Positions 1,079 through 29,417 of a stretch of DNA of 64,000 nt are shown here, piece after piece. The number at the start of each line of letters is the position of its first letter. Positions within the stretch are counted from its first letter, which is position 1. Where the stretch lies: assembly GCA_018669005.1 (NCBI GenBank), contig JABJAL010000103.1, positions 42,931 through 106,930 of the forward strand, written 5' to 3'. A program made the translations under genes and the position numbers. Under the pieces are notes generated by a model. It was not told where the DNA came from, ran no database searches, and saw only the letters and a list, made by a program, of their open reading frames with translations. This DNA is from Nitrospinaceae bacterium (GTDB lineage Bacteria > UBA8248).

Positions 1079-2344
1079 ATGAAACGCCTCGGCATTTTAA
1101 GTTCTACTATTTTGGTTTTCTTGCTTGCGGGATTGAATTTTCAATTGCCAGTTCGTTTATCCTCTGCCGCCGAAAAAAAATCTATTTCGGCTTGGAAGTC
1201 TGCCGCTGAATTCGCGAAACAACATTGGCGTACACCAGTTCCTCCGATGGGGAAGGCTCCGGCGTCTCACAAAAAACGTGAGCGCTCCTTGCTTCCCGAG
1301 GATTGTGGTAGTTGCCATCCAGACCAATACAAGCAATGGAAAACGACACTTCATGCCGGAGCGATGAGCCCTGGTATTTACGGTCAGACCGTAGATCTGT
1401 GGGCAAATAATCCTGGTTCCGCTCAAAGTTGTAATGAGTGTCATGCACCGCTAGCCGAGCAGCAGAAAAAATCCCTGGCGGGCATCGGGCCTCTCGCTTC
1501 ATGGAAAAAGAATCCGGCTCATATATTGAAACTCGAAATGGCCGGGCTGGCTTGCGCTGCCTGCCATGTACGAAACTGGCGAGTCTACGGCCCCCCGAAG
1601 CGCGAAACAAAGGTCGGAATTAATGATGCAACATCAACCGGGGAGCACGGTGGGGTGGAGCGTACCCCGTTTTTTGAGCGCGCCGAGTTTTGTATGGGTT
1701 GTCATCAGTTCGAGGGCGGTGGGCCGAACGGAAAATCCATCCAGAATACCTATAATGAATGGAAGGCGAGTATCTGGGCCAAGGAGGGGGTTCAGTGTCA
1801 GAACTGCCATATGCCCAAGCGAGCACATCTTTGGCGCGGCATACACGATAAAGAAATGGCGCAGAGCGCTGTTACCCTGGATGTTGAACTCGAAGACAAA
1901 GCTCCTAAAGATATTGTCTCGGCCAAAATCATTCTTACCAACACGGGTGCTGGCCATTATTTTCCAACATACATCACGCCCTCGGTTGATGTTATCGCAT
2001 GGTTAGAGGACAAAAACGGAGCTGCCCTTCCGGGGAGCCAGGTGGTTGAGATTATTGAGCGGAAACTTTCTTCTGATTTTAGTCGCGAAATTTACGATAA
2101 ACGCATTCCCCCACAAGAAGCGTTCATCATGAACTATCGTCGGGGAAGGCCCCCTGAGGCCGCCACCCTTCGCGTTCGGGTACGTGTTCGACCTGATTCT
2201 TTCTATCTTGGATTTTTCAAAGCAACGCTCGGAGGCCGGGGACTTTCCAAAAAAGCAAGAAAACTCCTTGAGGAAGCCAAACGGCGTGCGGAAAATTCGC
2301 CGTTTGATATTTTCGATGATCGGATAGAACTGGATAAAGGGTAG
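1079..2344 (+). CDS. Pentahaem c-type cytochrome, periplasmic
   Basis: N-terminal signal/anchor MKRLGILSSTILVFLLAGLNF. Five CxxCH motifs are present: CGSCH, CNECH, CAACH, CMGCH, CQNCH. The C-terminal part has a TNTGAGHYFPT motif seen in multihaem cytochrome families. Confidence 0.85.
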   Translation: MKRLGILSSTILVFLLAGLNFQLPVRLSSAAEKKSISAWKSAAEFAKQHWRTPVPPMGKAPASHKKRERSLLPEDCGSCHPDQYKQWKTTLHAGAMSPGIYGQTVDLWANNPGSAQSCNECHAPLAEQQKKSLAGIGPLASWKKNPAHILKLEMAGLACAACHVRNWRVYGPPKRETKVGINDATSTGEHGGVERTPFFERAEFCMGCHQFEGGGPNGKSIQNTYNEWKASIWAKEGVQCQNCHMPKRAHLWRGIHDKEMAQSAVTLDVELEDKAPKDIVSAKIILTNTGAGHYFPTYITPSVDVIAWLEDKNGAALPGSQVVEIIERKLSSDFSREIYDKRIPPQEAFIMNYRRGRPPEAATLRVRVRVRPDSFYLGFFKATLGGRGLSKKARKLLEEAKRRAENSPFDIFDDRIELDKG

Positions 2345-3701: not shown

Positions 3702-4463
3702 CTAGAGGAGTCCATATATGAATTTTGCGACTAACGTTATTCCGACGAGACCGAGAAGGCTGAGGACCATACGCTCGAATCCGGATTCTGAGAGCGATTG
3801 GCGAAAACGATTACCGATCCACATTCCGAGAACGGCAGGTGCGAGAAGAAAAAGACTCTGCCAGCCCGCGCCAGATGCATAAGCGCCAAGGCCTGCGAAT
3901 GTGACAATCTGCGTGAAGATAAGAGTTGTCGAAACGCAATTGAGAAGAAAAACAAAAGCATCCTTCGGGACGGAAATGTAATTAAGGTACAGCACAAGAG
4001 TCGGGGCAGGCATCATTAGTGCGCCATGGAGAAAACCGGTCGCCGCTCCCCAGGCAACTGAAAGGGGGTGTCCGACATGCTCTGTTTTCTTCTCGGGCTT
4101 CCAGCCGCCGAGTCGCATGGCGACAACGATAAAAACACTAGCCCCGATGGCGGCCCGGGTGATGTCCTCGGGAAGCCAGACGACGAGGCGGACACCGATG
4201 GGCACGAAAAATATGCACGCAGGGAGAAAAACGAAGATTCGCGGTGTCTGGCGCCACTCAGAACGGGTGAGTATGAGGGCGTAGATGTTGAGAAGAAGTA
4301 TAGGCACCGCCATCCATGCCATGGCATCCTTAGGAGGAATTACGACAGAGAGAAAGGGAACGGTCGATACGATGAGGCCAAAGCCCATTGTCCCTTTGGC
4401 AAATCCACCAAAGACCATAACGATGAAAAGAAAAATCATGAGAATTACGGGAATTTCAGTCAC
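3702..4463 (-). CDS. TauE/SafE (TSUP) family anion exporter membrane protein
   Basis: Polytopic membrane protein of 253 aa. The N-terminus FGGFAKGTMGFGLIVSTVPFL is typical of TSUP/TauE proteins. Confidence 0.7.
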   Translation of the reverse strand: MTEIPVILMIFLFIVMVFGGFAKGTMGFGLIVSTVPFLSVVIPPKDAMAWMAVPILLLNIYALILTRSEWRQTPRIFVFLPACIFFVPIGVRLVVWLPEDITRAAIGASVFIVVAMRLGGWKPEKKTEHVGHPLSVAWGAATGFLHGALMMPAPTLVLYLNYISVPKDAFVFLLNCVSTTLIFTQIVTFAGLGAYASGAGWQSLFLLAPAVLGMWIGNRFRQSLSESGFERMVLSLLGLVGITLVAKFIYGLL

Positions 4464-4550: not shown

Positions 4551-5150
4551 TCACTCCTCTCTATCCTTTTTGAGACGCGAAAGTGCTGCTGTCAGTTCGG
4601 GCGACCCATCGGGTTCTTGCTCGACTATGCCGAAAGCGTAGTTTAGCCGGTTGGCGTAGGTGCGATAACTGGCGCAGGCAATGACATCGACTACATTGTC
4701 TTCGCTGAGCCCAACAGCGCGGAGGGTGTCAATATCGGCCTCTGCGATGGTATGGGGGCTCAGGGTGATTTTAAGGGCGAGCGCACAAATAGCCCGGTCA
4801 GCCCCATCAAGTATCCTTGCGTTTTCGGGGGAGAGTAGGACCTCGGCCAAATCGGCCTCCGAGGTGTTTTCGCTATGACCATGGAACGACCATCCGTGGT
4901 TAATCGCTCAGCCATATCAGCCGCCGTGAGCTGCGACGAAAAATGCTAGCATCTGCTCTCGCCGTACTCCTAGTGTGCTCCCCCCGTAGGCGGCGTTTCT
5001 GAGTGTTTCACGCCCCGAGAGGACTTCGGAACGCCGCCCGAGGGCAAGAAGAAATTTCGAGACGGGTCGGCCCCCGGCCCGAATTTTATCGATAATTTCC
5101 TTTGAGGCGCCTTTGGCTTCATCCAGTTTCATGGGGTGTATCCAGTTCAT
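4551..5150 (-). CDS. AhpD/carboxymuconolactone-decarboxylase-family peroxidase-related enzyme, candidate selenoprotein (UxxU)
   Basis: ORFs 4917-5150 and 4551-4850 are in the same frame. The join reads ...REQMLAFFVAAHGG-TGA-Y-G-TGA-AINHGWSFHG..., and the two TGAs (4919-4917, 4910-4908) sit exactly on the CxxCxxxH catalytic cysteines of this family. AGGAG lies 7 nt before ATG 5150. A SECIS-like hairpin follows. Confidence 0.6.
4878..4900 (-). other. SECIS-like stem-loop downstream of the in-frame TGA codons
   Basis: mRNA ACCACGGA-UGGUCGU-UCCAUGGU forms an 8-bp stem with one C.A mismatch and a 7-nt loop containing GGUC. It begins 8 nt after the second TGA and 17 nt after the first. Confidence 0.45.
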
Positions 5151-5265
5151 ATGTCATCTCCTGGCGATGAGTTAGGGCCATTTTCGGACTGCCGCCCCCT
5201 CGTAAAAAAAATATGAGCCTAAAACCCTTATTTTTCGGGCGTTCTGTATTTTTTTAAATAATTAC

Positions 5266-5579: not shown

Positions 5580-6443
5580 TCACTTTTCCTCACACATGCA
5601 TCGAAATCCAAATAGCAGGTGGCGAGCTCTCGGAGATCGGCCATGCCGCGAGGCGGCCCGAGTGATGCCCGGCTGATCGTCCCAAGAGCCCCCACCTTTC
5701 ATAACGCCCCGTCCAGGGTCAAAATCGCTCGAAGTCCACTCGAAAACGTTGCCCGCCATATCGAGAACCCCGTACGGGCTGGCACCCTTTGTGTAAGTGC
5801 CAATTGGGGTAGTTCCTTTGTGATGGTAGGCGTGATTTAAACGAGCGGGGTCGAATCGATTACCCCAAGGAAAATAAGCGCCTTGTGTGCCGCGAGCGGC
5901 TTTTTCCCACTCGGCCTCGGTGGGGAGGCGCAAGTGCTTGCCGCCGGATTTTCCCCTGCGCCAGGCGCACATGGCCTCGCCATCTAATCGACTGACGAGG
6001 ACGACGGGATGGCGCTCAAGGCCAGCAGGGTGGGTCGGTTTGCCGCCCGCGTCTTTTAACCATAGGTATCGGCGCACAGCCTTGTAGGGATGAACGAGAT
6101 ATCCTTGTCGCTGATAGTCTTCAGGGGAAATGAAAGGTGCAGGGTGGCCAGTCTCCCGAACAAAAAATTGATATTCGCTTTGGGTAACGAGATTCTTGTC
6201 GATGAAATAATTTTTTAAAAAGAGCTGTTTGCGGGGAAGTTCCCATGCATCAAACCATCGGCCTTTTCGTGCGGCGTTGCTGCCGATGCGGTAGGCGAGA
6301 TCCCTCTCGGCCCGGTCACTTCCCATCCAAAAATGTCCCGCTGGTATTTTGATGAGAGAGTTGTCGCCGCTGCAGGGTTCACCACTGACCATGCCAGGCA
6401 GGGAAATCCAAAAAAATAGCGCTACGGTTAATGCTGCCCTCAT
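5580..6443 (-). CDS. Formylglycine-generating-enzyme (SUMF1/FGE) family protein, secreted
   Basis: Signal peptide MRAALTVALFFWISLPGMVSG. Family motifs present: FWMGS, HPVVLVS, RLPTEAEWEKAARG, GNVFEWTSS, GGSW. Confidence 0.8.
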   Translation of the reverse strand: MRAALTVALFFWISLPGMVSGEPCSGDNSLIKIPAGHFWMGSDRAERDLAYRIGSNAARKGRWFDAWELPRKQLFLKNYFIDKNLVTQSEYQFFVRETGHPAPFISPEDYQRQGYLVHPYKAVRRYLWLKDAGGKPTHPAGLERHPVVLVSRLDGEAMCAWRRGKSGGKHLRLPTEAEWEKAARGTQGAYFPWGNRFDPARLNHAYHHKGTTPIGTYTKGASPYGVLDMAGNVFEWTSSDFDPGRGVMKGGGSWDDQPGITRAASRHGRSPRARHLLFGFRCMCEEK

Positions 6444-9637: not shown

Positions 9638-10279
9638 ATGCCCCTCGACCCAACGCTCATCGTCATAACGGACAAAAAAATTCTGGCTCACTCCTCGAAC
9701 ATGCCGATGGCCGATGCCGTCCGTGCTGCGGCGGCTGGCGGCGCGACGATGATTCAGTACCGCGAAAAGGAAATGGAGAGTGCCGAGTTGCTGCGCGAGG
9801 CAGACGAGCTATGCGCCGCGCTCGATGGAACCGGATGTTCATTCACAGTGAATGATCGCATCGATATTGCTCTCGCCTCTGGAGCTGCGGGGGTGCATCT
9901 TGGCCAGACGGATTTACCCCTTCCCCGCGCGAAGGCGTTGGGAGGTAGCCTGTTCTATGGCGTGACTGCGGGGAGAATAGAGTGGGCCGCAAAAGCAGAG
10001 GCTGATGGAGCAGATTATTTCGGGGTGGGGCCAATCTATCCGACGGGCAGCAAGGATAATGCGCGGCCACCCATCGGCCCTGCCGGGATGGGCAAAATTC
10101 TTCCCTATGCGGGTGGTATTCCGGCGGTGGCCATCGGTGGGGTGAATGCTGAAAATCTTGCGCCCGTCATAGCTGCCGGGGCGCAAGGGGTGGCGGTTAT
10201 TGGGGCGGTGATGGGAGCGTCCGATCCAGAGGCGGCAGCGCGGGAGTTGAGGCGCCGTATCGAGGAGGCCAAAGGGTGA
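9638..10279 (+). CDS. thiE: Thiamine-phosphate synthase
   Basis: Typical ThiE length and motifs (IQYREK, VHLGQTDLP, GVGPIYPTGSK, AIGG). ATG 9638 follows GGGAGA; the ORF-track start 9626 is also possible. Confidence 0.85.
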   Translation: MPLDPTLIVITDKKILAHSSNMPMADAVRAAAAGGATMIQYREKEMESAELLREADELCAALDGTGCSFTVNDRIDIALASGAAGVHLGQTDLPLPRAKALGGSLFYGVTAGRIEWAAKAEADGADYFGVGPIYPTGSKDNARPPIGPAGMGKILPYAGGIPAVAIGGVNAENLAPVIAAGAQGVAVIGAVMGASDPEAAARELRRRIEEAKG

Positions 10280-11331
10280 ATGCAAAAGTGCAAGAAACGG
10301 CGGGAGGTTATGGCGAATTTGCTCTGATCGAGCGCCTGCGCTCGAAGCTGACCAAGTCACTCGAGGGCCCGAATGTCATCGTTGGTATCGGTGATGATGC
10401 CGCCGTGCTCGATGCTGGCGATGGGAAATGTTGGGTAGTTTCGTGCGATGCGCAGGTGCAAGGCACCCATTTTCCGAAGACGGGCGCTTCAGGCTTCAGT
10501 GTTGGCCACAAGGGACTTGCTGTGAATATAAGCGATGTTGCCTCGATGGGCGCCCGTCCGCTTTATGCGCTGATTTCTCTTGGGGTGACAGATGACACGT
10601 CGCTCGAATTTCTTGACGAGGTTTATGAGGGAATTAATGCCAAGGCCGAGCAGTGGGGCCTCGCCGTTGTTGGCGGAAACGTAACGCGCACTGAAGGGCC
10701 GTTTTTCATCGACGTGTTTATTACGGGAGAGGTGGCGCGCGAGAATCTTCTTCTCCGTAGCGGAGCGCGGCCGGGCGATCTAATTCTGGTGACAGGTAAC
10801 CTGGGAGACGCCGCCGCAGGTTTTTATATCTTGAACCACCCGGAGTTGAAGATCGGCTATGAATCGAGAACGATGCTCACCTTCGCACATCAGCGACCAC
10901 AACCTCGGGTGAGAGAGGCGCAGGCCATTTCGGCGCTTTGCAAGGCAACCGCGATGATGGATATCAGTGATGCGCTGGCAGGCGATGTCGAGCATATTTG
11001 CAAAGCAAGTGAAGTGGGGGCGGTGATTTGGGAGCATGAACTGCCTATTTCGACAGCGGCCCTCGATTTGGCGTCAATTGTTCAGGTGGACCCAAAAGAG
11101 TGGGCTCTCTATGGGGGCGAGGATTATCAGCTTTTGTTAACGGCCCCGGTCTCAGAGGTGCCCGCGCTTCAAGAAGCTGTAAGATCCGTTGGCGGCGGCT
11201 CTCTTACCCCGATTGGAGAGATATTGCTGCCCTCAGAGGGGATTTTGATTAAAAAAAGAAGTGGCACGGAGCCCCTTGAGGTTAAATCATGGGATCATTT
11301 CGGAAAACCTGAAGAGGACCCTAAAAGTTAA
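10276..11331 (+). CDS. thiL: Thiamine-monophosphate kinase
   Basis: GEFALIERL...GIGDDAAVL N-terminus and PurM-like fold. It shows 4-nt overlap coupling with thiE. Confidence 0.85.
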   Translation: MNAKVQETAGGYGEFALIERLRSKLTKSLEGPNVIVGIGDDAAVLDAGDGKCWVVSCDAQVQGTHFPKTGASGFSVGHKGLAVNISDVASMGARPLYALISLGVTDDTSLEFLDEVYEGINAKAEQWGLAVVGGNVTRTEGPFFIDVFITGEVARENLLLRSGARPGDLILVTGNLGDAAAGFYILNHPELKIGYESRTMLTFAHQRPQPRVREAQAISALCKATAMMDISDALAGDVEHICKASEVGAVIWEHELPISTAALDLASIVQVDPKEWALYGGEDYQLLLTAPVSEVPALQEAVRSVGGGSLTPIGEILLPSEGILIKKRSGTEPLEVKSWDHFGKPEEDPKS

Positions 11332-12364: not shown

Positions 12365-13105
12365 ATGGTTGATAACGTAGGTAGTACACCGCAATTGGGT
12401 GGCCGTAATTTAAACGAGCTTGTGGCCAAGCGAGATAGCCAGAGTACGCTGGTGCGCTCGGTGAGTGGCCCTCCGGCTACGGCGGTTGCGCCAAGCAGTT
12501 CTGAGGCGCCCGAAACGGATCCGGCAATTAAGGGGCCCGATACCGGAGAGCAAATTAGTAAGGCACGCGAGCGACGCCGGAATCTTGAGTCTTCCTCTGT
12601 GTCTGTCCAGAACGCGGCGCAGGGTGCGAATACTTCGTCGCAATTGCGCGAGCTTACAGGCCAGGCAATCCAGGCACAGGCCCAGTCACGCCCGGCCCCT
12701 CCGCCAGTTCAGCCGGAGCAAACACAAAGCCCGGCGGGTGTGGGAAATGCTCCCCAGGGGGCGCCTGATAGTGGGCAAGAAGTTGCCGCTGTTTCCCCTC
12801 GAACGGAGGCTCCTGAAGTCGCCCCGGTTGCTGTTGGTGGAAGTGCTGGGCAGCAGACGAATACTGCCGCGACAGAGACATCGAGCCAGGCAGCGCCTGT
12901 CGCAGAGGCACCCAACCCGACACCAACGCTTCAGACGAGTGAAAGCCAGGCTCCGCAAGCTGTAGGTGGCACAGGTCCTGCGCCGCAAGCGAGTATCCCC
13001 GAGGTGGCGGTTCCCAATGCGCCTGAAACATCCGCTGATAATACAAGTACGGATTCTTCTGATGTGCCGGAAGTTAGAGGCGATGTTGTGAATGTTGTTG
13101 CTTGA
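12365..13105 (+). CDS. Low-complexity P/A/Q/S/E-rich (probably disordered) protein with YjfB-like tail
   Basis: 246 aa. It starts MVDN, like the next ORF (MVDS), and ends ...EVRGDVVNVVA. Overlapping alternate-frame ORFs are composition artefacts. Confidence 0.55.
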   Translation: MVDNVGSTPQLGGRNLNELVAKRDSQSTLVRSVSGPPATAVAPSSSEAPETDPAIKGPDTGEQISKARERRRNLESSSVSVQNAAQGANTSSQLRELTGQAIQAQAQSRPAPPPVQPEQTQSPAGVGNAPQGAPDSGQEVAAVSPRTEAPEVAPVAVGGSAGQQTNTAATETSSQAAPVAEAPNPTPTLQTSESQAPQAVGGTGPAPQASIPEVAVPNAPETSADNTSTDSSDVPEVRGDVVNVVA

Positions 13106-13432: not shown

Positions 13433-14635
13433 CTAAAGAAACATCTGTTTTTCAGTCTTGTCGGGAGAGTCTGGGTGGATGCCGCTTGAGAATCGCTCGA
13501 TAATACCGGCCAGCATCGCTGTACGCGGCACGAGAGAGGATAGCTCGATGTATTCCTCTACTGTATGGAGTCCGCCTCCCACAGGCCCCAGGCCATCGAG
13601 GACGGGCACACGCATGGGTGCGAGGTAGTTACCGTCTGAGCCTCCCCCTGTTTGGGTGTGAGAAAATGAAACGCCGGCATCGGAGGCAATTTTCTCGGCG
13701 AGTTGGAGAAGCGTTCCCGTCTCCTCGCCGGTCTCCATGGCTGGCCGCCCGCCTCCCTCGGTGAAGATGAGGCGCGTTCCCTCGACGTTGGGAGTTTGAA
13801 TATTCTTGGCCAATTCATTTCGCATGGCGTCGAGCGTTTCCTGTTGCCAGGCCCTGATTTCAATGGTGCAGTCCGCCTTATCGGCCACGATGTGCGGGCG
13901 CTCCCCGCCGCTCAGGCCGGTGACGTTGAGTGTTCCGCCGGGGCGAACAAGACCGTAGGCTTGGACAATTTGCCGGGCCACTTCCTCGACCGCGCTGCGC
14001 CCTTTTTCGGGGTCAACACCGGCGTGTGCGGCGATTCCTTCTATAGAAAGCGTGCCGATGGCGCTTCCCATTCTGGCGCTGACGACCGAGCCATCTGCTC
14101 GGGCAGGCTCTAGTATCAGGGCCGCCGCCGCAAATTCGCCCATCTCCTCAATCAGACCCTTTGAGGAGGGGTTTCCTCGCTCCTCGTCCGTGTCGTAGAG
14201 AATGGTGATGGTGCCGAAATCATCGAAGCCCTCTGCGAGTAAGGTTTCCATCGCGTGGAGGCATGTAACCAGCCCGCCTTTCATGTCGATGATGCCAGGG
14301 CCCATCGCGCGGTCTCCGGTAATTTTAAAAGGGCGTTTGGCGGCCTCGCCCTCTGGGAATACCGTATCGCAGTGTCCGATGAGAAAAAGCTTGGGTTTGT
14401 CTGGGCGTTTTCCCCGGAAGCGAACTGTCAGGTGGTCGCCCGTACCGTGCGTGCCAGGTATGCGATCCACATCGCCGCCCATATTCCGGTAGCGCGCCTC
14501 GAAGTATGAGGCGACTTTAGTTGTTCCCTGCCCCGGAAAGGTGGGTGAATCGATTGAGACAACTTGCCTGAGATTCTCGATTATCTCGCTCTGGCGCGGC
14601 TCAATTTTTTCGCGCAGTTTTTTTGCACCGATCAT
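13433..14635 (-). CDS. M20 family metallopeptidase (carboxypeptidase G2 / YgeY-like)
   Basis: Motifs LIGHCDTVFPEGEA and GPGIIDMKGGL. The start is taken at MIGAKKLREK (ATG 14635), forming an ATGA overlap with the upstream stop; the 29-aa extension in the ORF track is unlikely. Confidence 0.8.
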   Translation of the reverse strand: MIGAKKLREKIEPRQSEIIENLRQVVSIDSPTFPGQGTTKVASYFEARYRNMGGDVDRIPGTHGTGDHLTVRFRGKRPDKPKLFLIGHCDTVFPEGEAAKRPFKITGDRAMGPGIIDMKGGLVTCLHAMETLLAEGFDDFGTITILYDTDEERGNPSSKGLIEEMGEFAAAALILEPARADGSVVSARMGSAIGTLSIEGIAAHAGVDPEKGRSAVEEVARQIVQAYGLVRPGGTLNVTGLSGGERPHIVADKADCTIEIRAWQQETLDAMRNELAKNIQTPNVEGTRLIFTEGGGRPAMETGEETGTLLQLAEKIASDAGVSFSHTQTGGGSDGNYLAPMRVPVLDGLGPVGGGLHTVEEYIELSSLVPRTAMLAGIIERFSSGIHPDSPDKTEKQMFL

Positions 14636-15417
14636 TTTTTCTCTCCGATAAGATAAAATCGGCCTTCCACCGAATCTCCCGTCACGCACATATCGAAGAT
14701 GCCCTCGGGCACTGATTCCCATACTTCCTCGGCAAGACGAAGGCGCTCCTGAGATAGACAGTGGCTTAGGTAGAGAATTTTCTTAGCGCTGGCAGGGAGA
14801 CGCGCTGGATAGCTCTCGGGATGTGAGGCCAGTGCGGCCAGGTGGCGAGGCTCAAGCGTGTCGCCTTGCGCAAAGCCGCCGATTCGGCAGGAGGTCTCAA
14901 AGCGAAAAACGATATCCGGGTTCGCGCTCATACCGATGGCCTTTAGTCCCTGTACAAGAATGCAGTGCGATACGCCACCCGGAATGACAGGCTCTGTTTC
15001 TGAGGGGGCCTTAATGAGTCTCTTTCGCGCACCGTCGGTCTTCACGATGAGCACGTTTCCGCTGCCCATGGCATGAAGCGCCTCCACCTGCTCAAGCGGA
15101 ATGCCAAGAAACATATCTTTGGGCAGCTTTTTTTCTACCCAGACAACCGCGCCTCGCGCGGCCCATTCCTGGGCTGCCGCATCGGCCTTTTCTCTTTCGG
15201 CCTCGCTGAGGAGTAAGGAAGGACCACTCCAATCCTGGAGCGATTGAAGGTTGGTCGTGCCCGTAACGAGCACGGGCTTTCCGGCCTCTACGAATTCGAT
15301 TACGAGTCGCTTCGTGATCGTTGCCTTGCCGCCGGCGCCCATGACAGCGGTCATTTCGCCGGGCTTGATATCAATGATTTTTGAAAGAAGTGGTAGTGCG
15401 TCTATATTTTTATTCAT
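14632..15417 (-). CDS. yqeC: YqeC-like protein (putative selenium-dependent hydroxylase accessory protein family)
   Basis: Walker-A-like VMGAGGKAT near the N-terminus, followed by VLVTGTT and a later EPVIPGG segment. This is the arrangement I associate with YqeC. Size is 261 aa. Confidence 0.5.
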   Translation of the reverse strand: MNKNIDALPLLSKIIDIKPGEMTAVMGAGGKATITKRLVIEFVEAGKPVLVTGTTNLQSLQDWSGPSLLLSEAEREKADAAAQEWAARGAVVWVEKKLPKDMFLGIPLEQVEALHAMGSGNVLIVKTDGARKRLIKAPSETEPVIPGGVSHCILVQGLKAIGMSANPDIVFRFETSCRIGGFAQGDTLEPRHLAALASHPESYPARLPASAKKILYLSHCLSQERLRLAEEVWESVPEGIFDMCVTGDSVEGRFYLIGEKK

Positions 15418-16630: not shown

Positions 16631-18223
16631 TTATCCGCCCGATTTCACACCGGCTTCCTTGCTTAGTGCCTCTCTCACAATATAGTCCGCCAACAACTGA
16701 TAACCCGCTGTCGTGTAATGCCCGCGGGAAGGGAAAAATTTTGGGTCGTATTTTTTCTCTTCAAGAGCTCTTTCGAAATTAGTCAGCGGAATATTCAGTT
16801 CCCGGAGAATTTTTATTATTTCCGTCCGGTCGACCCGCTCTTCCGATTTGATTGAAAAATATCTGGAACCCAGCACCTGTACCGGAAGATAGACCACATG
16901 GATTTTCCCGCCCCAGGCGGCCGTTTCTTCTTTGGCCCTTTTGAAAATAGTTCTTAATTTTTCGAGGAGTACTCTGTTTTGATTTTTTTTCAGGCGGATG
17001 CCGGTGGAGCCGAGTAATGTCCTTAACTTTGATAGGACGATAAAGTTGCGAATGTTTGTTACGGTTGATCTGAAGTCATATTTTTCTTTTTTTTCGGATG
17101 TTTGTTTTGTAGGGGTATCATACTGGCGCGGGGTATCTCCCCCGCCGCGCGAGAATTTTCGGAATGAAAAACGCCGAGCTATCTCGTCTATCTTTTTTCG
17201 GGAGTCTATCTGGGCGGTCTTTTTTGGGGAGTCTTTCGAGGCATTTATCTCGATTAGTTCTTTTTTGATGTTGATGAAACGTTTCCAGAATGAATCAATT
17301 TCATCTTGCCGCTTCGTCAGTCCTTGATAGAATTTTTTACTTAGGTAATTTTTTAAATACTGGCTTCCCAGTTCTTCTTTTAGGTTTCTTAGGTCGTTTC
17401 CCTCGTAATAAACCCAAAAAACAATTTTGGGCTTTAATATGCGCCCGTATTCCACGAGGCCGGCCAGTTCCAGCAAAGGGCCATTGCCTCGAACGGCAAT
17501 ATTGATGGCGTTGTATCCATGGGCCCGCAGCCTGCCTCCGATATCCTTTCCTTCGGGAACGCAAGAGCCGTGCGCAAAGGAATCGCCGAGGATCATTAGG
17601 CGGGGACCGGGGCGCGAATAGACCGTATCGTCGTTGTTGAACCCATGCCGGTCGCTTTGATAAATGGCCCAGTCTCCGGTTTCGTTGCAAAGGACAGTTT
17701 TTATATTGGAGATGCCTCCGATCGGAAAAATGTTTCCGAATGGATGTATCCCACTGTTCAAGTAGTCATTGTCTAAATTGTTGAAAAGTTGAGAGGCGAC
17801 ACCTGAAGGATAGGCGTCGATGTTTTGTCTTTTGAAGTCGTTAATTACTTCTATTTTGTTGCGGCGGTCAAATCTTTTTTTGGCGCTTCGTTTGTTTCTC
17901 GCGACACCTACTTCCCGGTAAGCTTGTTTTTGGTCGCTGCTTTCTCGGATTTCTAAAATAAAATTAAAAAGATAAGCTCCGGTGCCAAGAGAGAAGATCA
18001 AAAGTGCGAAATTAAGCCGATAGGCAGGCCATAGAAAATAGGCCACTCCGATAAAAGCCGAAAAGGCGCCGGCCGCGCCCATGATTATTTTTCCCGAGTC
18101 GGCAACGATCTCGATTATCGAAAATCCATAAACAAGGATGAAAATCCCCACTAGAAAGCTGATTACGAATATGCCTTTGGCAACTAGTTGCAAGGCTATT
18201 GGTGGCTGATAGGTAGCGGTCAT
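16631..18223 (-). CDS. Membrane-anchored SGNH/GDSL-type hydrolase family protein
   Basis: The start is taken at MTATYQ (ATG 18223); the track's 5' extension overlaps the upstream gene. About four N-terminal TM segments are present. SGNH blocks: LGDSFAHG, VRGNG, YEGNDL, GHYT. A Lys-rich insert is present and the DNA is visibly AT-rich. Confidence 0.65.
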   Translation of the reverse strand: MTATYQPPIALQLVAKGIFVISFLVGIFILVYGFSIIEIVADSGKIIMGAAGAFSAFIGVAYFLWPAYRLNFALLIFSLGTGAYLFNFILEIRESSDQKQAYREVGVARNKRSAKKRFDRRNKIEVINDFKRQNIDAYPSGVASQLFNNLDNDYLNSGIHPFGNIFPIGGISNIKTVLCNETGDWAIYQSDRHGFNNDDTVYSRPGPRLMILGDSFAHGSCVPEGKDIGGRLRAHGYNAINIAVRGNGPLLELAGLVEYGRILKPKIVFWVYYEGNDLRNLKEELGSQYLKNYLSKKFYQGLTKRQDEIDSFWKRFINIKKELIEINASKDSPKKTAQIDSRKKIDEIARRFSFRKFSRGGGDTPRQYDTPTKQTSEKKEKYDFRSTVTNIRNFIVLSKLRTLLGSTGIRLKKNQNRVLLEKLRTIFKRAKEETAAWGGKIHVVYLPVQVLGSRYFSIKSEERVDRTEIIKILRELNIPLTNFERALEEKKYDPKFFPSRGHYTTAGYQLLADYIVREALSKEAGVKSGG

Positions 18224-18312
18224 ATTCCGGATTCTGGCATAAGTCGGGCCGACGATTCGAGTAATTCGTAAGAAAAAATTATAGCAAAAAAAGCCATTTG
18301 CCAACCACCCGT

Positions 18313-19419
18313 TTAATTGGCTGGCGCCTTGCCGGGCCAGTTTGAACCGGTAAGGCGGGTCCAGGCGTTTTTGAACGCAAGCCGCTGACGGGTGGGCGGT
18401 GTTAGGTGTTCTAATATGCGGCGCCGATAGCTTTGTATTCGAGCAGAATATATCTCGGGGGTCGAATATTTTATCGAACTGCCCGTATGAAAGTGAGAGA
18501 TCCGCGATTCGAGCAGCGAACGCCATTCGGGCGAAAATCCTTCACCCGGATCGATCAGAAGATTCTCCCTCGGCTGGGAAAAAATGGTTTTAAGCTGTGG
18601 CGGCCGCTGGGTCAGTATAAAATACAGGTTCGGTCGGCGCAGGGTGATAGCGCGAATGAGCCCGTGGCCGTAGCCGGGTAGTTTCCCTGAATTGGGGAGA
18701 TACCCGGCACGGTTCCATATGACGGAGGCACCGACATAGGCCCGAAACTGACGTTCAAGCCAGCCGAGTCCGTTGTCCTCGGGTTCCATATTGAGCCAGA
18801 GCGGCGCTTTTTTTTCCGCGGAAAGACGTAGAAGGGCTTCAAACGCGGCTTTTTGTCTTGTGATTTTATTGGCTCGGGGGTCTTTTTGTTCACCGTCCAG
18901 AATTTTTCCCGGGGCGAGGTTAAGAAAAACCCTGCCGATTCCATACGCGCCAGCTTCGAGTTCCTGGCGGGTTGAGGCCAGATGACCACTCCCGGGCGCA
19001 GACCATGAAATTCCTCTGGGCGAGGTTGTGAGTGGAATTATCCGAGCGGGATATCTTTGCACCGCTCGCGAGATCGTTTCTTTCTCGTGGGCCGAGACGG
19101 CAGCTAGTGCCACGCCGGAGAGATCCATGGTTTCGATCAGACCTGCCAGGTCAGTTTTGGGCGCCAGTAAAATATCCATGTCGATTATTGGCAGGTGACC
19201 TCCCTTGAGAAAAGCCTGAACAGTTTTTCGGTAGAGCGCGTTTCGACCCTCGCGGGTGGCAGGGGTACTCGCCGGGGTTAGCGAAATAGGTCTGGGGGCG
19301 GGGCCGCATCCCGCCAATAGTGCGCTTCCTGTAAAGAGCACTAAAACGAAAATTAAAACATGAAGCGTCTCTTTTTGAGGGGTCCACATTATTCGTCTTG
19401 TCTGCTTGATGTTGGCCAT
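18313..19419 (-). CDS. Hypothetical lipoprotein
   Basis: The start is taken at MANIKQTRR (ATG 19419). A lipobox, LLAGC, follows a hydrophobic stretch. I recognise no family motif. Confidence 0.6.
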   Translation of the reverse strand: MANIKQTRRIMWTPQKETLHVLIFVLVLFTGSALLAGCGPAPRPISLTPASTPATREGRNALYRKTVQAFLKGGHLPIIDMDILLAPKTDLAGLIETMDLSGVALAAVSAHEKETISRAVQRYPARIIPLTTSPRGISWSAPGSGHLASTRQELEAGAYGIGRVFLNLAPGKILDGEQKDPRANKITRQKAAFEALLRLSAEKKAPLWLNMEPEDNGLGWLERQFRAYVGASVIWNRAGYLPNSGKLPGYGHGLIRAITLRRPNLYFILTQRPPQLKTIFSQPRENLLIDPGEGFSPEWRSLLESRISHFHTGSSIKYSTPEIYSARIQSYRRRILEHLTPPTRQRLAFKNAWTRLTGSNWPGKAPAN

Positions 19420-19432
19420 GCTTCGATTCCGA

Positions 19433-20161
19433 TTATTCCATAATGGCGACGGCGCGGATGTGGGTGCCAGTGGCGCCCATCCAGTGGAGCGGCAGTACAC
19501 TCACGGTGAAGCCATGTGCTTTGGGAATGTCGCCTAAATTGGCGAGGTTTTCAATGTGCCAGTACTCACGCTTTTGGAAGAGGCGGTGGCAGGGCCAGGG
19601 GTCTTTGCGATCAAGCATTTCTTTAATCGGTAAATCGAAGCCCGGTGCGTCGATGCCCATTACCTGAATGCCCTTGTCGATGAGCCATTCGGCGCTCTCG
19701 CCCACCATGCCGGGATGATCTGTTAGATAACGCGGCTCCTCGTTGTAGTCGGCAGCGCCGGTCCATAGCAGGACGATCTCGCCGCCCTTGAACTCGTAGC
19801 TCTCTTTGTCGAGTGCAGCCTGAAGATCGCCTTCTGTAATCAACTCGCCCGGTTTTTTGTGACGCATGTCGAGGCGTACACCGGGGCCGTAACATTTGTC
19901 GATGGGAATCTTCTCGGTGGGCGAGTCGAGTTGGCCGCCGTGGCTTCTGGCATCAATATGGGTGCCGCAGTGTTCGCTGAAGATGCAAACGCTGTGCTGG
20001 AAAAGCTCGGGAAACCCCATCTTGTCTGTGCCGACGCGTTTGGCCGACTCGAAAGTGGTTTCCACCGTTTTGATGAGCGGCTGGAGCGTGCCCGGATAAT
20101 GCTGCATGTTCTGGTGCACAGGCATTGAAAGATCGATCAACTGGGGCATTTTTATCTCCAC
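19433..20161 (-). CDS. Cyclase family protein (kynurenine formamidase-like)
   Basis: HCGTHIDARSH motif (HxGTHxDxPxH type). 242 aa. Confidence 0.75.
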   Translation of the reverse strand: MEIKMPQLIDLSMPVHQNMQHYPGTLQPLIKTVETTFESAKRVGTDKMGFPELFQHSVCIFSEHCGTHIDARSHGGQLDSPTEKIPIDKCYGPGVRLDMRHKKPGELITEGDLQAALDKESYEFKGGEIVLLWTGAADYNEEPRYLTDHPGMVGESAEWLIDKGIQVMGIDAPGFDLPIKEMLDRKDPWPCHRLFQKREYWHIENLANLGDIPKAHGFTVSVLPLHWMGATGTHIRAVAIME

Positions 20162-20182: not shown

Positions 20183-20899
20183 CTATTTAATGCGGCCCGG
20201 TGCGTATTTGATGAAATCCCACCACCACATCTCACGGATGGGGCCAACAAGTTTGCCAATCGTCTCGGCACTTCGCGAAGTGCCTGTGGCGGCTTCTTTC
20301 CATTCCGCCGAACCGATGGGTTCGAGGGTGGACATTTCATAAATGGCGATGAGGGTCTGCTGGCCGTCTTGTTTGCCCTGCATTTTGGTTTCTGCGGTTT
20401 TCTCGTCTGAAACAGCATCTCGCCGGAAGAGCCGCGCCCGGACCACGCAGTCAAGCGCGCACAGACGAGGGAGGTGCTCCTCGCGATACCAGGAGATGAC
20501 TTCCGCCTCGGCTCCCTCGGTCGGGTCGCACCGGAAGGTGTAGATGTAGGGTGGCTCGACGCGAGGCCTATCACCCGAGGTGGCCTCTAGCGTGTAGACG
20601 CCGCGCCGGGCGTCCTTGATGACACCCATTGATTTTTGGGTCCATGGGGTGGGGTTGTTGCGCGATTCGCGGTAGTAGGGGCTGTCGAAGGTGGCCAAAT
20701 CCTCGCCCTCGAATACGGTGAGCCGCTTATGGTGTCCTTCGCCACCCTCGCTGTTGTAGCGGCGGCAGGCGATGTAGCCAGGGCCCTCGAGGCGCTCGGT
20801 CGTGTGCTCAAGATTGTGCCACTTGCGGATTTCCTCTTCCTTTTCCTTGGGAATGTTCGACCAGATAGCGGTGATGGCTTTCGCCTCGGGAAGGCTCAT
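20183..20899 (-). CDS. Uncharacterised two-domain protein, distant relative of the 45.4-47.7 kb paralogues
   Basis: The start is taken at MSLPEAKAITAIW (ATG 20899). Two repeats carry a W-x(n)-EH(L/T) pattern (IRKWHNLEHTTERL and ISWYREEHLPRL), consistent with a duplicated ferredoxin-like alpha/beta barrel. Confidence 0.55.
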   Translation of the reverse strand: MSLPEAKAITAIWSNIPKEKEEEIRKWHNLEHTTERLEGPGYIACRRYNSEGGEGHHKRLTVFEGEDLATFDSPYYRESRNNPTPWTQKSMGVIKDARRGVYTLEATSGDRPRVEPPYIYTFRCDPTEGAEAEVISWYREEHLPRLCALDCVVRARLFRRDAVSDEKTAETKMQGKQDGQQTLIAIYEMSTLEPIGSAEWKEAATGTSRSAETIGKLVGPIREMWWWDFIKYAPGRIK

Positions 20900-20909
20900 T
20901 TGTTTCTCC

Positions 20910-22343
20910 TTAATCCTTGATGTTCGCCAGCCACTTGGCGTATTCGACCGAAGGGGCAACCTTATGCTCGCGCCAGATGGTCATCTTTTCGGCCTCGATT
21001 GAGCCCTCGGCGTGGATGGCGAGGACGGCCTGGTAGCCGCCAAAATCTGTCGCCGTTATCTCGGCGATGAGGTTCATTAGCCGCAAGCGGTCACCAGCCG
21101 ACACGCCGCCCGCCCCGCCCAGGTATTTTTCGACCAGCTCGCCCAGGCGTGGGTCGTTCATGTCCTCCTCGGTGGGCCCGGTAACCAAAAGCCCGCCCGC
21201 GATGTCTTGCACCCAGGCGAGGGCCTGGTGGTACCCGGTGGCAAAGTGGAGTTTGGCGATGTTCACCGTCTCGACATCGGGCACGGCGATGCCGTCCACG
21301 GTGCGACACTCTCTTGCCGCCTCGCGGGTCATTCCCCGCAGGATTTGCGCGTAGCTGATAAGCCGGGCGAGCTTGTCGCGGACATGGCCCGCGCGAAGGA
21401 CGCCATTGTACTCGGCCATCAGGTAGGAGGCCCCGACGAACAAATCTACCAGCGGGAGCTTGTAGCTGATAGCCGTGAAGCGGTGATACTCAACGAAAGT
21501 TTTCGCAAGCGCCCCGGCCATTCCCACCTCGCCGTTCAGGAACACCCGATCCCAGGGCACTTTTACGTCCTCGAAGATTGTGAGCGTTTCCATCATCTTG
21601 TGTTTTGAGGCGATGGGGTACTCGAATTCGTTGCCGCCCCGCCCGTAGCCTGAGGCGATCATGGTGAGCCCCGGCGCATTTGCAGGCACCGCGCAGGCCA
21701 CTGCATAAGCTTCGTCGCCCTCGCCCATTGCCCGCGTCGGCAAAACAATAATCTCGTGTGCGTTCGTCGAAACAGAAGTGTGAATTTTCGCACCGCGCAG
21801 GGTGATGCCCTCTGCGTCCTCGGAGACGACGCGGACGTAATAATCGGGGTGGTTCTGCTCGCCGGGGCCCTTTGCTCTGTCGCCCTTCACATCCGTCTGG
21901 GCGACGGCGATGGCAAGGTCGTTGTCGCGGCAATGCTCGTAGAATTTCTTGACGCGGGGTAGATACTCGGTCCCCATCTCGCGGTCCATGTGCTCGGCGA
22001 TCAGATGAAGCGCGAACAGCGCGTCCGTGCCAATTTCTTTAATGAGGACCACCAGCGTCCCGCCCAGCGCCGTTGCCCGCTCGATGAGGGCGCTCCGCTT
22101 GAGCAGGTTTCCTGCGTTCCCTGGAATGTGGTAGTAGCGCGAGTAGGGGCCGTTTGGGCCCTCCACCACCGCTAGCTTCCTGTCATCCCCCTCGTGGGCC
22201 ATCTCGTAGTCGATGGCGGCGTGATCCACCGCGACGCCAATCACCGGATGCGCCGCGACATCCTCAACCGCCTCCCCCCGGTAAAACACCCGCCGCCCGT
22301 CCTGCAGGCTTGCCTTGTAGTCGTCCGGACTCATCAGGGGCAT
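20910..22343 (-). CDS. 4-hydroxyphenylacetate 3-hydroxylase (HpaB) / AbfD superfamily flavin enzyme
   Basis: 477 aa. The N-terminus DYKASLQDGRRVFYRGEAVEDVAAHP is typical of the family. The Cys/His pattern for an AbfD-type 4Fe-4S cluster is not evident. Confidence 0.7.
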   Translation of the reverse strand: MPLMSPDDYKASLQDGRRVFYRGEAVEDVAAHPVIGVAVDHAAIDYEMAHEGDDRKLAVVEGPNGPYSRYYHIPGNAGNLLKRSALIERATALGGTLVVLIKEIGTDALFALHLIAEHMDREMGTEYLPRVKKFYEHCRDNDLAIAVAQTDVKGDRAKGPGEQNHPDYYVRVVSEDAEGITLRGAKIHTSVSTNAHEIIVLPTRAMGEGDEAYAVACAVPANAPGLTMIASGYGRGGNEFEYPIASKHKMMETLTIFEDVKVPWDRVFLNGEVGMAGALAKTFVEYHRFTAISYKLPLVDLFVGASYLMAEYNGVLRAGHVRDKLARLISYAQILRGMTREAARECRTVDGIAVPDVETVNIAKLHFATGYHQALAWVQDIAGGLLVTGPTEEDMNDPRLGELVEKYLGGAGGVSAGDRLRLMNLIAEITATDFGGYQAVLAIHAEGSIEAEKMTIWREHKVAPSVEYAKWLANIKD

Positions 22344-29385: not shown

Positions 29386-29417
29386 AAGCGGTGTAGCTGT
29401 TTAAATCAGTAAAATCA

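What the first reader, a model, noticed from the sequence alone, without database searches (positions are those of the whole stretch)
4551..5150. AhpD/CMD-family peroxidase-related gene with both CxxC cysteine codons replaced by in-frame TGA: candidate UxxU selenoprotein
The ORFs listed as 4917-5150 and 4551-4850 are in one frame, and together (199 aa) they have the length and end-to-end sequence pattern of the AhpD-core 'peroxidase-related enzyme' family. The only interruptions are two TGA codons: ...FFVAAHGG-TGA-TAT-GGC-TGA-GCG-ATT-AAC-CAC-GG..., which reads U-Y-G-U-A-I-N-H. These fall exactly on the C-x-x-C-x-x-x-H redox motif of that family. Two random nonsense mutations hitting precisely both catalytic Cys positions is very unlikely, and TGA is used as an ordinary stop by many neighbouring genes. 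A hairpin (ACCACGGA-UGGUCGU-UCCAUGGU, loop containing GGUC as in the E. coli fdhF SECIS loop) starts 8 nt after the second TGA. Sec-containing AhpD-like proteins are established. A version with Sec at both positions, and two UGAs only 6 nt apart served by one hairpin, would be unusual. A YqeC-like gene at 14.6 kb independently hints that this organism handles selenium.
Basis: partly seen in the sequence, partly recalled or inferred. Interest (0 to 1): 0.8.

Follow-up and report, generated by a model that had tools for sequence, protein, structure and literature searches.

The report
Double-selenocysteine (UxxU) AhpD-like redox protein gene
This is an intact gene for a small AhpD-type redox enzyme in which both catalytic cysteines are encoded by UGA, almost certainly read as selenocysteine; every relative found keeps this state, public annotation misses it, and the selenoprotein reviews I read do not list it for this family.

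Summary
Window 4551-5150 (minus strand) is one 199-codon frame interrupted only by TGA at codons 78 and 81.

- **Family.** With U read as C, it matches the AhpD-core "peroxidase-related enzyme" family TIGR01926 end to end. Both TGAs fall on the two Cys of the invariant CxxCxxxH motif.
- **Not a pseudogene.** The same TGA-TAY-GGN-TGA occurs in 23 species-representative genomes, several titled Nitrospinota or Nitrospinaceae, and in 7 metagenome contigs. A search that did not use the motif recovered exactly those 23 genomes, with no Cys at either position.
- **Translated.** The 118 codons after the second TGA are under purifying selection (median dN/dS 0.25).
- **RNA element.** A conserved hairpin has its apical loop 16 nt after UGA2 and 25 nt after UGA1. 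Its synonymous sites are frozen, and it fits the published bacterial SECIS model, borderline on stability.
- **Sec use in the lineage.** At least 18 of the 23 genomes also carry a CxxU paralogue, the known AhpD-like selenoprotein type.
- **Gaps.** No selA, selB, selD or tRNA-Sec lies in the window, so the machinery is inferred.

Verdict: a new UxxU variant of a known selenoprotein family, annotated in public databases only as 117-118-aa "hypothetical" fragments.

The parts
4551..5150 (-). Complete coding sequence of the UxxU AhpD-like protein: 199 sense codons, ATG at 5148-5150, own stop TGA at 4551-4553.
   Evidence: single frame. TIGR01926, E 9.4e-23, profile positions 2-176 of 178. PDB 6k40, E 1.8e-12; dN/dS 0.14 before and 0.25 after the TGAs.
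5158..5162 (-). AGGAG Shine-Dalgarno-like sequence, 7 nt upstream of the ATG.
   Evidence: Read directly from the sequence. Inferred, not tested.
4917..4919 (-). First in-frame TGA (codon 78), a predicted selenocysteine. It occupies the first Cys position of CxxC, the resolving Cys in AhpD.
   Evidence: TGA in all 30 distinct coding sequences compared. No TGC, TGT or TGG at this position in any genuine relative.
4908..4910 (-). Second in-frame TGA (codon 81), a predicted selenocysteine. It occupies the second Cys position of CxxC, the position that is Sec in the known CxxU AhpD-like selenoproteins.
   Evidence: CxxU relatives are shown.
4896..4898 (-). CAC codon for His85 of the CxxCxxxH motif. 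It also forms the first three bases of the hairpin's 5' arm.
   Evidence: H85 is invariant in alignment A2. The codon is CAC in 30 of 30 sequences, although CAT makes up 37% of His codons elsewhere in these genes.
4878..4900 (-). Predicted SECIS hairpin. The conserved core at 4880-4898 is CACGGA / U-GGUC-G-U / UCCAUG. The window has one C.A mismatch and two extra outer pairs (AC/GU). The apical loop starts 16 nt after UGA2 and 25 nt after UGA1.
   Evidence: Consensus structure, with 98.5% of cells paired. Stability -7.5 kcal/mol in the window and -6.8 to -10.5 in relatives. Frozen synonymous sites (CGT 29 of 29, TTC 30 of 30, TTG 21 of 21).
3702..4463 (-). TauE/SafE-family membrane protein gene, 87 nt downstream on the same strand. 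Probably co-transcribed in the window's sub-clade.
   Evidence: Pfam PF01925, E 1e-22. It is adjacent in L001, L009, L014, L021 and L069-L075. It is not adjacent in the majority clade, where DUF1499 follows instead.

Best explanation
The gene encodes a genuine selenoprotein of the AhpD/carboxymuconolactone-decarboxylase fold, in the TIGR01926 "peroxidase-related enzyme" branch. Both redox-active residues of the CxxCxxxH centre are selenocysteine (U78-Y-G-U81-x-x-x-H85).

Shown here:
- The frame is intact.
- Both UGAs sit on the catalytic Cys columns.
- Both UGAs, and the reading frame after them, are conserved under purifying selection across a deep lineage.
- A nucleotide-constrained hairpin follows the UGAs.

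Inferred:
- SelB carrying Sec-tRNA(Sec) binds that single hairpin and decodes each UGA in turn. The loop is about 25 nt from UGA1 and about 16 nt from UGA2, both inside the 16-37 nt range of the published bacterial SECIS model.
- The protein then works like AhpD. The C-terminal selenolate (U81, equivalent to the nucleophilic Cys that is already Sec in CxxU relatives) attacks a peroxide or an oxidised partner.
- U78 resolves the intermediate, forming an intramolecular diselenide instead of a selenenylsulfide. This would give a more reducing centre that resists over-oxidation.
- The likely evolutionary path is CxxC, then CxxU, then UxxU after duplication. At least 18 of the 23 genomes that carry the UxxU gene keep a CxxU paralogue.
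For: - **Frame and motif:**. With U read as C, the protein matches TIGR01926 end to end (E 9.4e-23).
- **Solved structures:** phmmer puts both positions on the CxxC of 6k40 (DR1765), 2oyo and 3c1l. In DR1765 the two Cys are needed for full complementation of H2O2 sensitivity (PMC8945050).
- **Alignment with CxxU and CxxC relatives:** C78, C81 and H85 are invariant columns.
- **Conservation:** 23 of 23 species genomes and 7 of 7 metagenome contigs have TGA at both sites. The only two extra matches to a pattern that allows any third base at both TGN codons are unrelated DNA.
- **Motif-independent search:** patterns A[MVI]NHG[QR][LS]FR and [FY]AN[RST][IL]N[YF]A[FYM]G return the same 23 genomes.
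- **Selection:** median dN/dS is 0.14 upstream and 0.25 downstream of the TGAs over 435 pairs, with synonymous sites near saturation between clades.
- **Hairpin:** it is kept in all sequences. Codon entropy falls from 0.54 to 0.20-0.28 across it (p about 0.002). Arg90 is CGT in 29 of 29 sequences, although CGT is 10% of Arg codons elsewhere.
- **Sec use in the lineage:** at least 18 of the 23 genomes also hold a CxxU paralogue with its own SECIS-like hairpin. YqeC, a selenium-cofactor gene, lies in the window and in syntenic loci. MAGs named Nitrospinota, Nitrospinaceae or Nitrospinae (GTDB UBA8248) are among the most selenoprotein-rich bacteria in BSepDB (PMC13326102).
- **Genetic code:** TGA is an ordinary stop here.
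Against: - No selA, selB, selD or tRNA-Sec lies in the 64-kb window or in any fetched locus. The only "selD" tblastn hits are ThiL.
- No Rfam SECIS match was found.
- The hairpin shows no two-sided compensatory changes, so its support is invariance and one-sided changes, not covariation.
- Its stability is borderline for the SECIS model: -7.5 kcal/mol in the window and -6.8 in two relatives.
- An alternative helix that pairs the UGA region with the hairpin loop is equally compatible with all sequences.
- The TIGR01926 score is 0.9 bit below NCBI's curated cut-off.
- I found no other selenoprotein gene in the window with a simple read-through scan.
- There is no experimental evidence for selenium incorporation.
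Confidence: 0.85

Rival explanations
1. One or both UGAs are recoded, but not as Sec. A SECIS-dependent Cys-inserting tRNA (tRNA-ReC / SelC*), or near-cognate read-through, inserts Cys or Trp at UGA1. The mature protein would then be CxxU, or a mixture, rather than UxxU.
For: PMC13582414 reports that genomes with UXXU-type group 4 [NiFeSe] hydrogenases are enriched in tRNA-ReC-like genes, about 56% against 2.3%. It raises exactly this possibility for closely spaced UGAs. UGA1 lies 25 nt from the loop and arose after UGA2, since the CxxU relatives are the outgroup.
Against: TGA at codon 78 is kept in all 30 distinct sequences while synonymous sites are near saturation. If Cys were the product, a change to TGC or TGT would be neutral or better and should have been fixed in some lineage. 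None is seen. No tRNA of any kind lies in the window.
Confidence: 0.08
2. It is a pseudogene, or a split gene that yields two separate products: a 77-aa N-terminal fragment and a 99-118-aa C-terminal fragment, as public annotation has it.
For: Gene callers predict exactly this. In the majority clade an ATG follows UGA2 directly (A-M-N-H), giving 117-118-aa "hypothetical proteins".
Against: That codon is ATT in the window, GTA in L009, GTC in L017 and ATA in L069, so no start codon is conserved there. Both halves are under purifying selection in one frame. The two intervening codons (TAY GGN) and both TGAs are invariant. A split would remove precisely the catalytic residues. A pseudogene would not keep 199 open codons in more than 30 independent assemblies.
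Confidence: 0.03
3. The organism uses a variant genetic code in which UGA is a sense codon (Trp or Gly), or the TGAs are sequencing or assembly errors.
For: TGA is the rarest stop among long ORFs in the window, 8 of 48.
Against: Those 8 TGA stops include genes that end where their family profiles end: YqeC, ThiE with a GTGA stop/start overlap, and this gene itself. The TGAs align with Cys, not with Trp or Gly. Identical TGAs appear in more than 30 independent assemblies from different projects.
Confidence: 0.01
4. It is a real UxxU selenoprotein, but the pair of selenols acts mainly as a binding or transfer site for a soft metal or metalloid, or for selenium itself, rather than as a peroxide-reducing redox couple.
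For: Another bacterial UxxU protein is a putative metal-binding, mercuric-reductase-like protein (PMC13188914). In the window's sub-clade the gene is followed by a TauE/SafE anion-exporter-family gene. YqeC, and in the majority clade a molybdenum hydroxylase, lie nearby.
Against: The whole CxxCxxxH redox signature is retained. The nearest characterised homologue acts in H2O2 defence through its CxxC. The neighbouring genes differ between sub-clades, so they give no firm functional link.
Confidence: 0.1

Closest known systems
AhpD-like selenoproteins (COG2128 / TIGR01926, CxxU motif), first described from Sargasso Sea and GOS metagenomes and from the Olavius symbionts (PMC1088965, PMC2398784, PMC1976440; listed in PMC9312934 and PMC13188914)
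   Same: Same protein family and length, and the same CxxCxxxH centre. Sec sits at the second position, with a SECIS hairpin just downstream. CxxU relatives at 37-47% identity were recovered here, 27 of them in species genomes and at least 18 in genomes that also carry the UxxU gene.
   Different: Here the first Cys is also UGA, giving two Sec residues. The 2008, 2022 and 2026 papers list only CxxU and one Sec for this family. The hairpin of the co-resident CxxU paralogue has a different sequence and position: GCUUUC-CGUGCU-GAAAGC, with the loop about 24 nt after its UGA.
DR1765, the AhpD-like protein of Deinococcus radiodurans (PDB 6K40), and M. tuberculosis AhpD
   Same: It is the best solved-structure match (E 1.8e-12), and its CxxCxxxH aligns residue for residue. 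The CxxC is needed for H2O2 protection (PMC8945050). From established knowledge of M. tuberculosis AhpD, the second Cys is the nucleophile and the first resolves.
   Different: These proteins use Cys, not Sec. Sequence identity is low. No partner peroxiredoxin or lipoamide system was identified near this gene.
UxxU selenoproteins in other folds: eukaryotic SelL (diselenide; Shchedrina et al. 2007, cited in PMC2398784), bacterial Prx-like 2, a putative mercuric-reductase-like metal-binding protein, the FmdB family, and UXXU group 4 [NiFeSe] hydrogenases (PMC13582414)
   Same: Two Sec residues separated by two residues, encoded by UGAs 6 nt apart. PMC13582414 proposes that one downstream SECIS serves both UGAs in the hydrogenases; the same is assumed here for the other families. 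A diselenide is expected in the oxidised state.
   Different: The folds are unrelated: thioredoxin-like, metal-binding or hydrogenase, against the all-alpha AhpD fold. In the hydrogenases the motif ligates Ni rather than cycling as a redox pair.

Membership tests
AhpD-core / TIGR01926 'peroxidase-related enzyme' (CMD superfamily) | End-to-end match to the family profile at or above the curated cut-off | tested here: inconclusive
   With U read as C: E 9.4e-23 and 80.9 bits against a cut-off of 81.8, covering profile positions 2-176 of 178. Pfam CMD is weak at 17.9 bits against 23. Homology is clear, but the score is 0.9 bit under the trusted cut-off.
AhpD-core / TIGR01926 'peroxidase-related enzyme' (CMD superfamily) | CxxCxxxH redox motif at the conserved position | tested here: met
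   U78-Y-G-U81-A-I-N-H85 aligns with CxxCxxxH of 6k40, 2oyo and 3c1l. It also aligns with CxxU and CxxC relatives, where C78, C81 and H85 are invariant columns. The motif is met with Sec in place of both Cys.
AhpD-core / TIGR01926 'peroxidase-related enzyme' (CMD superfamily) | All-alpha AhpD fold | not tested
The fold is inferred from sequence homology to five solved AhpD-like structures.
AhpD-core / TIGR01926 'peroxidase-related enzyme' (CMD superfamily) | Peroxidase or peroxiredoxin-reductase activity | not testable with these tools
   This needs biochemistry.
Bacterial selenoprotein (SelB/SECIS-dependent UGA recoding) | In-frame UGA aligned with Cys in homologues | tested here: met
   Both UGAs meet this.
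Bacterial selenoprotein (SelB/SECIS-dependent UGA recoding) | UGA and the downstream reading frame conserved across species under purifying selection | tested here: met
   All 30 distinct sequences have TGA at both sites. dN/dS after UGA2 is 0.25.
Bacterial selenoprotein (SelB/SECIS-dependent UGA recoding) | bSECIS model (PMC13188914): apical loop of 3-9 nt, stem of 4-16 bp, G in the first two loop positions, 16-37 nt from the UGA, MFE <= -7.5 kcal/mol | tested here: met
   The loop is GGUC in the window's sub-clade and AGUU in the majority clade. The stem has 7-8 pairs. Spacing is 16 nt from UGA2 and 25 nt from UGA1, or 15 and 24 if the closing pair is not counted. MFE is -7.5 in the window and -6.8 to -10.5 in relatives, so this criterion is borderline. 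bSECISearch itself was not available.
Bacterial selenoprotein (SelB/SECIS-dependent UGA recoding) | selA, selB, selC (tRNA-Sec) and selD in the same genome | not testable with these tools
   None lies in the window or the fetched loci, and whole genomes could not be retrieved. Indirect support comes from the CxxU paralogue in at least 18 of the 23 genomes, YqeC in the window, and BSepDB's ranking of Nitrospinota-named (GTDB UBA8248) MAGs among the richest in selenoproteins.
Known AhpD-like selenoprotein subfamily (CxxU, one Sec) | Cys retained at the first position and a single Sec | tested here: not met
   The first position is TGA in every member of this clade. It is therefore a distinct UxxU variant, not a member of the CxxU subfamily as described.

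The most novel reading that the evidence does not exclude
A whole bacterial lineage, labelled Nitrospinota in several record titles and including sponge-associated and oxygen-deficient-zone MAGs, has fixed an obligate diselenide-forming UxxU centre in the AhpD fold. A single re-positioned SECIS hairpin would drive two successive SelB decoding events only 9 nt apart. That would make it a natural, compact two-UGA/one-SECIS cassette and the first diselenide enzyme of this fold. Its redox potential would be much lower than that of CxxC or CxxU relatives, and its substrate or partner would be specific to this paralogue and differ from that of the CxxU copy kept alongside it.
Probability: 0.4. Interest if true: 0.72.

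Novelty: new variant of a known kind. Interest (0 to 1): 0.6.

Why it matters
- **Rare chemistry.** Natural proteins with two selenocysteines in one redox motif are rare. A diselenide couple in the AhpD fold would extend that chemistry to a new scaffold and give a natural CxxC / CxxU / UxxU series in one family. In at least 18 of the 23 genomes the CxxU and UxxU forms sit side by side, which suits a study of why Sec replaces Cys.
- **Decoding.** The locus is a compact, conserved example of two UGAs 6 nt apart followed by one short hairpin. It could be used to test how SelB and SECIS handle back-to-back recoding, and as a cassette for engineering diselenide proteins.
- **Annotation.** Every close relative in a database of 5.8 billion protein clusters is stored only as a truncated 117-118-aa fragment; the two that a source names are called "hypothetical protein". 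Selenoproteome counts for this lineage therefore miss the family, and the gene models can be corrected.

Tried and rejected
- **Rfam.** The whole window at gathering threshold and the 201-nt region at E <= 10 gave no SECIS or other relevant family.
- **ARAGORN.** No tRNA in the window. Only a tRNA-Ser in L009 among 25 loci.
- **Sec machinery by tblastn.** E. coli SelA, SelB and SelD against the window and the loci fetched up to that point hit only ThiL. The AIRS-domain gene at 10276-11331 is ThiL, not SelD.
- **First protein searches.** The word-indexed search found a single fragment. The single-protein genome scan found nothing. Progress came from DNA patterns spanning the motif.
- I therefore searched with the C-terminal 117 aa. 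No structure prediction was attempted, because the tool states the same input rule.
- **Other selenoprotein genes in the window.** A scan for read-through ORFs with at least 45 codons on both sides of a TGA gave 74 candidates, none credible. The best-looking one, 27979-29400 (-), lies antisense to citrate synthase. Sec sites near a protein end would be missed by this scan.
- **Covariation in the hairpin.** No pair changes on both sides. Support rests on frozen synonymous sites instead.
- **Supplementary tables of the BSepDB paper.** They are not held, so I could not check whether that database already lists a two-Sec AhpD-like entry.

Full report
**Observation.** Window 4551-5150 on the minus strand is a single reading frame of 199 sense codons. 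It starts at ATG 5148-5150, preceded by AGGAG 7 nt upstream, and ends at TGA 4551-4553. The only interruptions are TGA at codon 78 (4917-4919) and codon 81 (4908-4910)...FFVAAHGG-U-YG-U-AINHGWSF.... The gene caller used on the source contig, a 125-kb contig of JGI metagenome 3300072015, split it into 77-aa and 99-aa products.

**Family, and where the TGAs fall.**
- With U read as C, the protein matches NCBIfam TIGR01926 "peroxidase-related enzyme" over profile positions 2-176 of 178. The E-value is 9.4e-23 and the score 80.9 bits, 0.9 bit below the curated cut-off. Pfam CMD is only a weak match.
- Against the PDB it matches five AhpD-like structures. The best is 6k40 (E 1.8e-12), and the printed alignments place both TGAs exactly on the CxxC of CxxCxxxH.
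- 6k40 is DR1765 of Deinococcus radiodurans. Loss of that gene sensitises cells to H2O2, and complementation is much weaker when the two CxxC Cys are mutated (PMC8945050).
- In an alignment with CxxU and CxxC relatives, columns C78, C81 and H85 are invariant.

**Comparative evidence.**
- The first relative found was a 775-bp metagenome contig at 63% identity. It has the same two TGAs and the same downstream TauE-like gene.
- The DNA pattern GGN-TGA-TAY-GGN-TGA-GCN-NNN-AAY-CAY-GG has about 0.1 chance matches expected in this collection, by my estimate. It hits 23 species-representative genomes. Several are titled Nitrospinota or Nitrospinaceae, and many are complete 3-4.5 Mb chromosomes. Each hit lies in an intact ~199-codon frame with exactly two TGAs.
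- Relaxing both TGA codons to TGN adds only two matches, and both are unrelated DNA in other frames.
- In JGI metagenome contigs the relaxed pattern gives 7 matches, all TGA/TGA. They include the window's closest relatives.
- A motif-independent search used peptide patterns that lie downstream of the TGAs. It returns 23 loci, the same 23 genomes. No orthologue with Cys, Trp or a decayed frame was found.
- In the 1.84-billion-representative library, the four nearest representatives that reach the N-terminal end of the query are 113-118-aa fragments that begin just after the second TGA.
- In the 5.8-billion-cluster database, the 24 closest clusters are 117-118-aa fragments. The two that a source names are called "hypothetical protein [Nitrospinae bacterium]". 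Public annotation has therefore missed the gene.

**Selection.** I compared 30 distinct coding sequences, giving 435 pairs. Median dN/dS is 0.14 for the 77 codons before UGA1 and 0.25 for the 118 codons after UGA2. Synonymous differences between sub-clades are near saturation, with pS about 0.7. The part after both UGAs is therefore translated in this frame. Both TGAs have survived a divergence over which nearly every free site has changed.

**The RNA element.**
- A hairpin is conserved in all sequences: CACGGR, then C/U, then a 4-nt loop, then G, an unpaired U, and UCCGUG. The loop is GGUC in the window's sub-clade and AGUU in the majority. 98.5% of cells are paired.
- In the window it lies at 4880-4898. 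It has one C.A mismatch, offset by two extra outer pairs at 4899-4900 and 4878-4879.
- Folded alone it gives -7.5 kcal/mol in the window and -6.8 to -10.5 in relatives.
- There are no two-sided compensatory changes, so classical covariation is absent.
- Synonymous sites across the hairpin are frozen: CAC in 30 of 30, TTC in 30 of 30, TTG in 21 of 21 and CGT in 29 of 29 sequences. Elsewhere in these genes CGT is only 10% of Arg codons, and every other conserved Arg column uses 3-5 different codons.
- Normalised codon entropy is 0.20-0.28 across the element against 0.54 elsewhere (p about 0.002). The search pattern left all synonymous positions free, so this is not a selection artefact.
- The published bacterial SECIS model requires a loop of 3-9 nt, a stem of 4-16 bp, G in the first two loop positions, 16-37 nt between UGA and loop, and MFE <= -7.5 kcal/mol (PMC13188914).
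- The hairpin meets this model. Spacing is 16 nt from UGA2 and 25 nt from UGA1. Stability is borderline.
- Rfam has no matching family.

**Does the organism use Sec?**
- The machinery is not in the window. There is no tRNA and no SelA or SelB. The AIRS-domain gene is ThiL.
- At least 18 of the 23 genomes that carry the UxxU gene also carry a CxxU paralogue at about 44% identity. It is the established AhpD-like selenoprotein type and has its own, different hairpin, whose loop lies about 24 nt after its UGA.
- The selenium-cofactor gene yqeC lies in the window and in the syntenic loci.
- BSepDB ranks three MAGs named Nitrospinota, Nitrospinaceae or Nitrospinae (GTDB phylum UBA8248) among the ten most selenoprotein-rich bacteria, with 48-54 genes each (PMC13326102). 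Whether the window's organism belongs to that GTDB phylum was not tested.
- TGA is a normal stop in the window, in 8 of 48 long ORFs, including this gene's own. That excludes a UGA-sense genetic code.

**Mechanism (inferred).**
- A single SECIS probably serves both UGAs. SelB carrying Sec-tRNA(Sec) bound at the hairpin would decode UGA1. After three more codons, a second complex would decode UGA2 with the hairpin at the mRNA entrance.
- PMC13582414 proposes the same arrangement for UXXU group 4 [NiFeSe] hydrogenases.
- By analogy with AhpD (established knowledge of M. tuberculosis AhpD, and DR1765), U81 is the nucleophile. This is the position that is already Sec in CxxU forms.
- U78 would resolve the intermediate, giving a diselenide in the oxidised state, as shown for eukaryotic SelL (Shchedrina et al. 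2007, cited in PMC2398784).
- The outgroups are CxxU (L028, L030 and the paralogues) and CxxC (P0020), which suggests the path CxxC, then CxxU, then UxxU.

**Rivals.**
- Cys insertion at one UGA by a tRNA-ReC-type tRNA cannot be excluded. It is disfavoured because no lineage has moved to TGC or TGT.
- A pseudogene, a split gene, a variant genetic code and sequencing error are each contradicted by the data above.
- A metal- or selenium-handling role for the diselenol, rather than peroxide reduction, remains possible.

**Novelty.** AhpD-like selenoproteins are well known, but the 2008, 2022 and 2026 papers list them only as CxxU with one Sec. Those papers list UxxU motifs only for other families. 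I could not check the BSepDB entries themselves. I rate this a new variant of a known kind. It is solid and useful, and moderately rather than highly surprising to a specialist.

**Context.** The region is syntenic across the lineage: Fe-ADH, YqeC, M20 peptidase, ThiL, ThiE, an optional group of ResA-like, DUF302, FGE-sulfatase-family and cyclase genes, the UxxU gene, and a multihaem cytochrome c. In the window's sub-clade a TauE/SafE gene follows the UxxU gene, at a distance of 87 nt in the window. In the majority clade, DUF1499 and a molybdenum-hydroxylase large subunit follow instead. The gene is therefore vertically inherited, and its immediate neighbours give no firm clue to function.

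Noticed in passing
window 4884-4919 (-); alignment A1 columns 5-18 with 27-39: A second helix is possible and excludes the SECIS hairpin. The segment GA-AYGGCUG (part of UGA1, the Tyr-Gly codons and the start of UGA2) can pair with the SECIS loop and the start of its 3' arm. 97.6% of cells are paired in 19 distinct sequences, and five pairs change on one side only. It may be chance, because the 5' strand is rich in G and U, or it may mask the region before the ribosome arrives.
   Followed up: partly
L040-L066 (for example L045 in OZ253442.1, L050 in VXPH01000064.1): At least 18 of the 23 genomes with the UxxU gene also carry a CxxU AhpD-like paralogue (GGCYGU-T-M/L/I-NH, about 44% identical). 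Its SECIS-like hairpin is different: GCUUUC-CGUGCU-GAAAGC, with the loop about 24 nt after the UGA.
   Followed up: partly
Protein clusters P0152-P0175 and P0002: All close relatives in the public protein collections are stored as 117-118-aa C-terminal fragments. The two that carry a name are NCBI "hypothetical protein [Nitrospinae bacterium]". This is a systematic mis-annotation of the family.
   Followed up: yes
window, 48 long ORFs: Stop-codon use is TAA 21, TAG 19 and TGA 8. TGA looks under-used for DNA with 53% G+C. I did not compare this with other genomes.
   Followed up: no
window 14632-15417 (-) and syntenic loci; L007 3530-5848 (-): yqeC (selenium-cofactor biosynthesis) is kept within about 5-10 kb of the UxxU gene across the lineage. 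In the majority clade a molybdenum-hydroxylase large subunit (MoCoBD_1, MoCoBD_2, Ald_Xan_dh_C) and a DUF1499 protein lie immediately downstream of the UxxU gene. This hints at a possible selenium-dependent Mo-hydroxylase trait.
   Followed up: partly
window 16631-18526 (-), 18313-19500 (-), 20183-20959 (-), 22761-23798 (+), 12365-13105 (+): Several long ORFs (246-631 aa) have no Pfam or NCBIfam match. They are either unannotated families or not real genes. 18313-19500 overlaps 16631-18526 by about 200 nt.
   Followed up: no
window 1079-2344 (+): A multihaem c-type cytochrome (Cytochrome_C554 and MtrC-like domains), with weak similarity to the NCBIfam "multiheme c-type cytochrome (seleno)protein ExtKL". 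It is conserved at 58-70% identity near the UxxU gene in 13 of the 23 genome loci and in L071.
   Followed up: no
L021 (MAG ODZ_NOB7a), just after the hairpin: The orthologue has an in-frame tandem duplication, GGATDA-GGATDA, 6 residues after the SECIS region. The frame and both TGAs are intact.
   Followed up: no
window 5580-6443 (-): A protein of the FGE-sulfatase family has its best, though weak, NCBIfam hits to EgtB and to selenoneine synthase SenA C-terminal domains. The identical protein occurs in three other metagenome samples.
   Followed up: no
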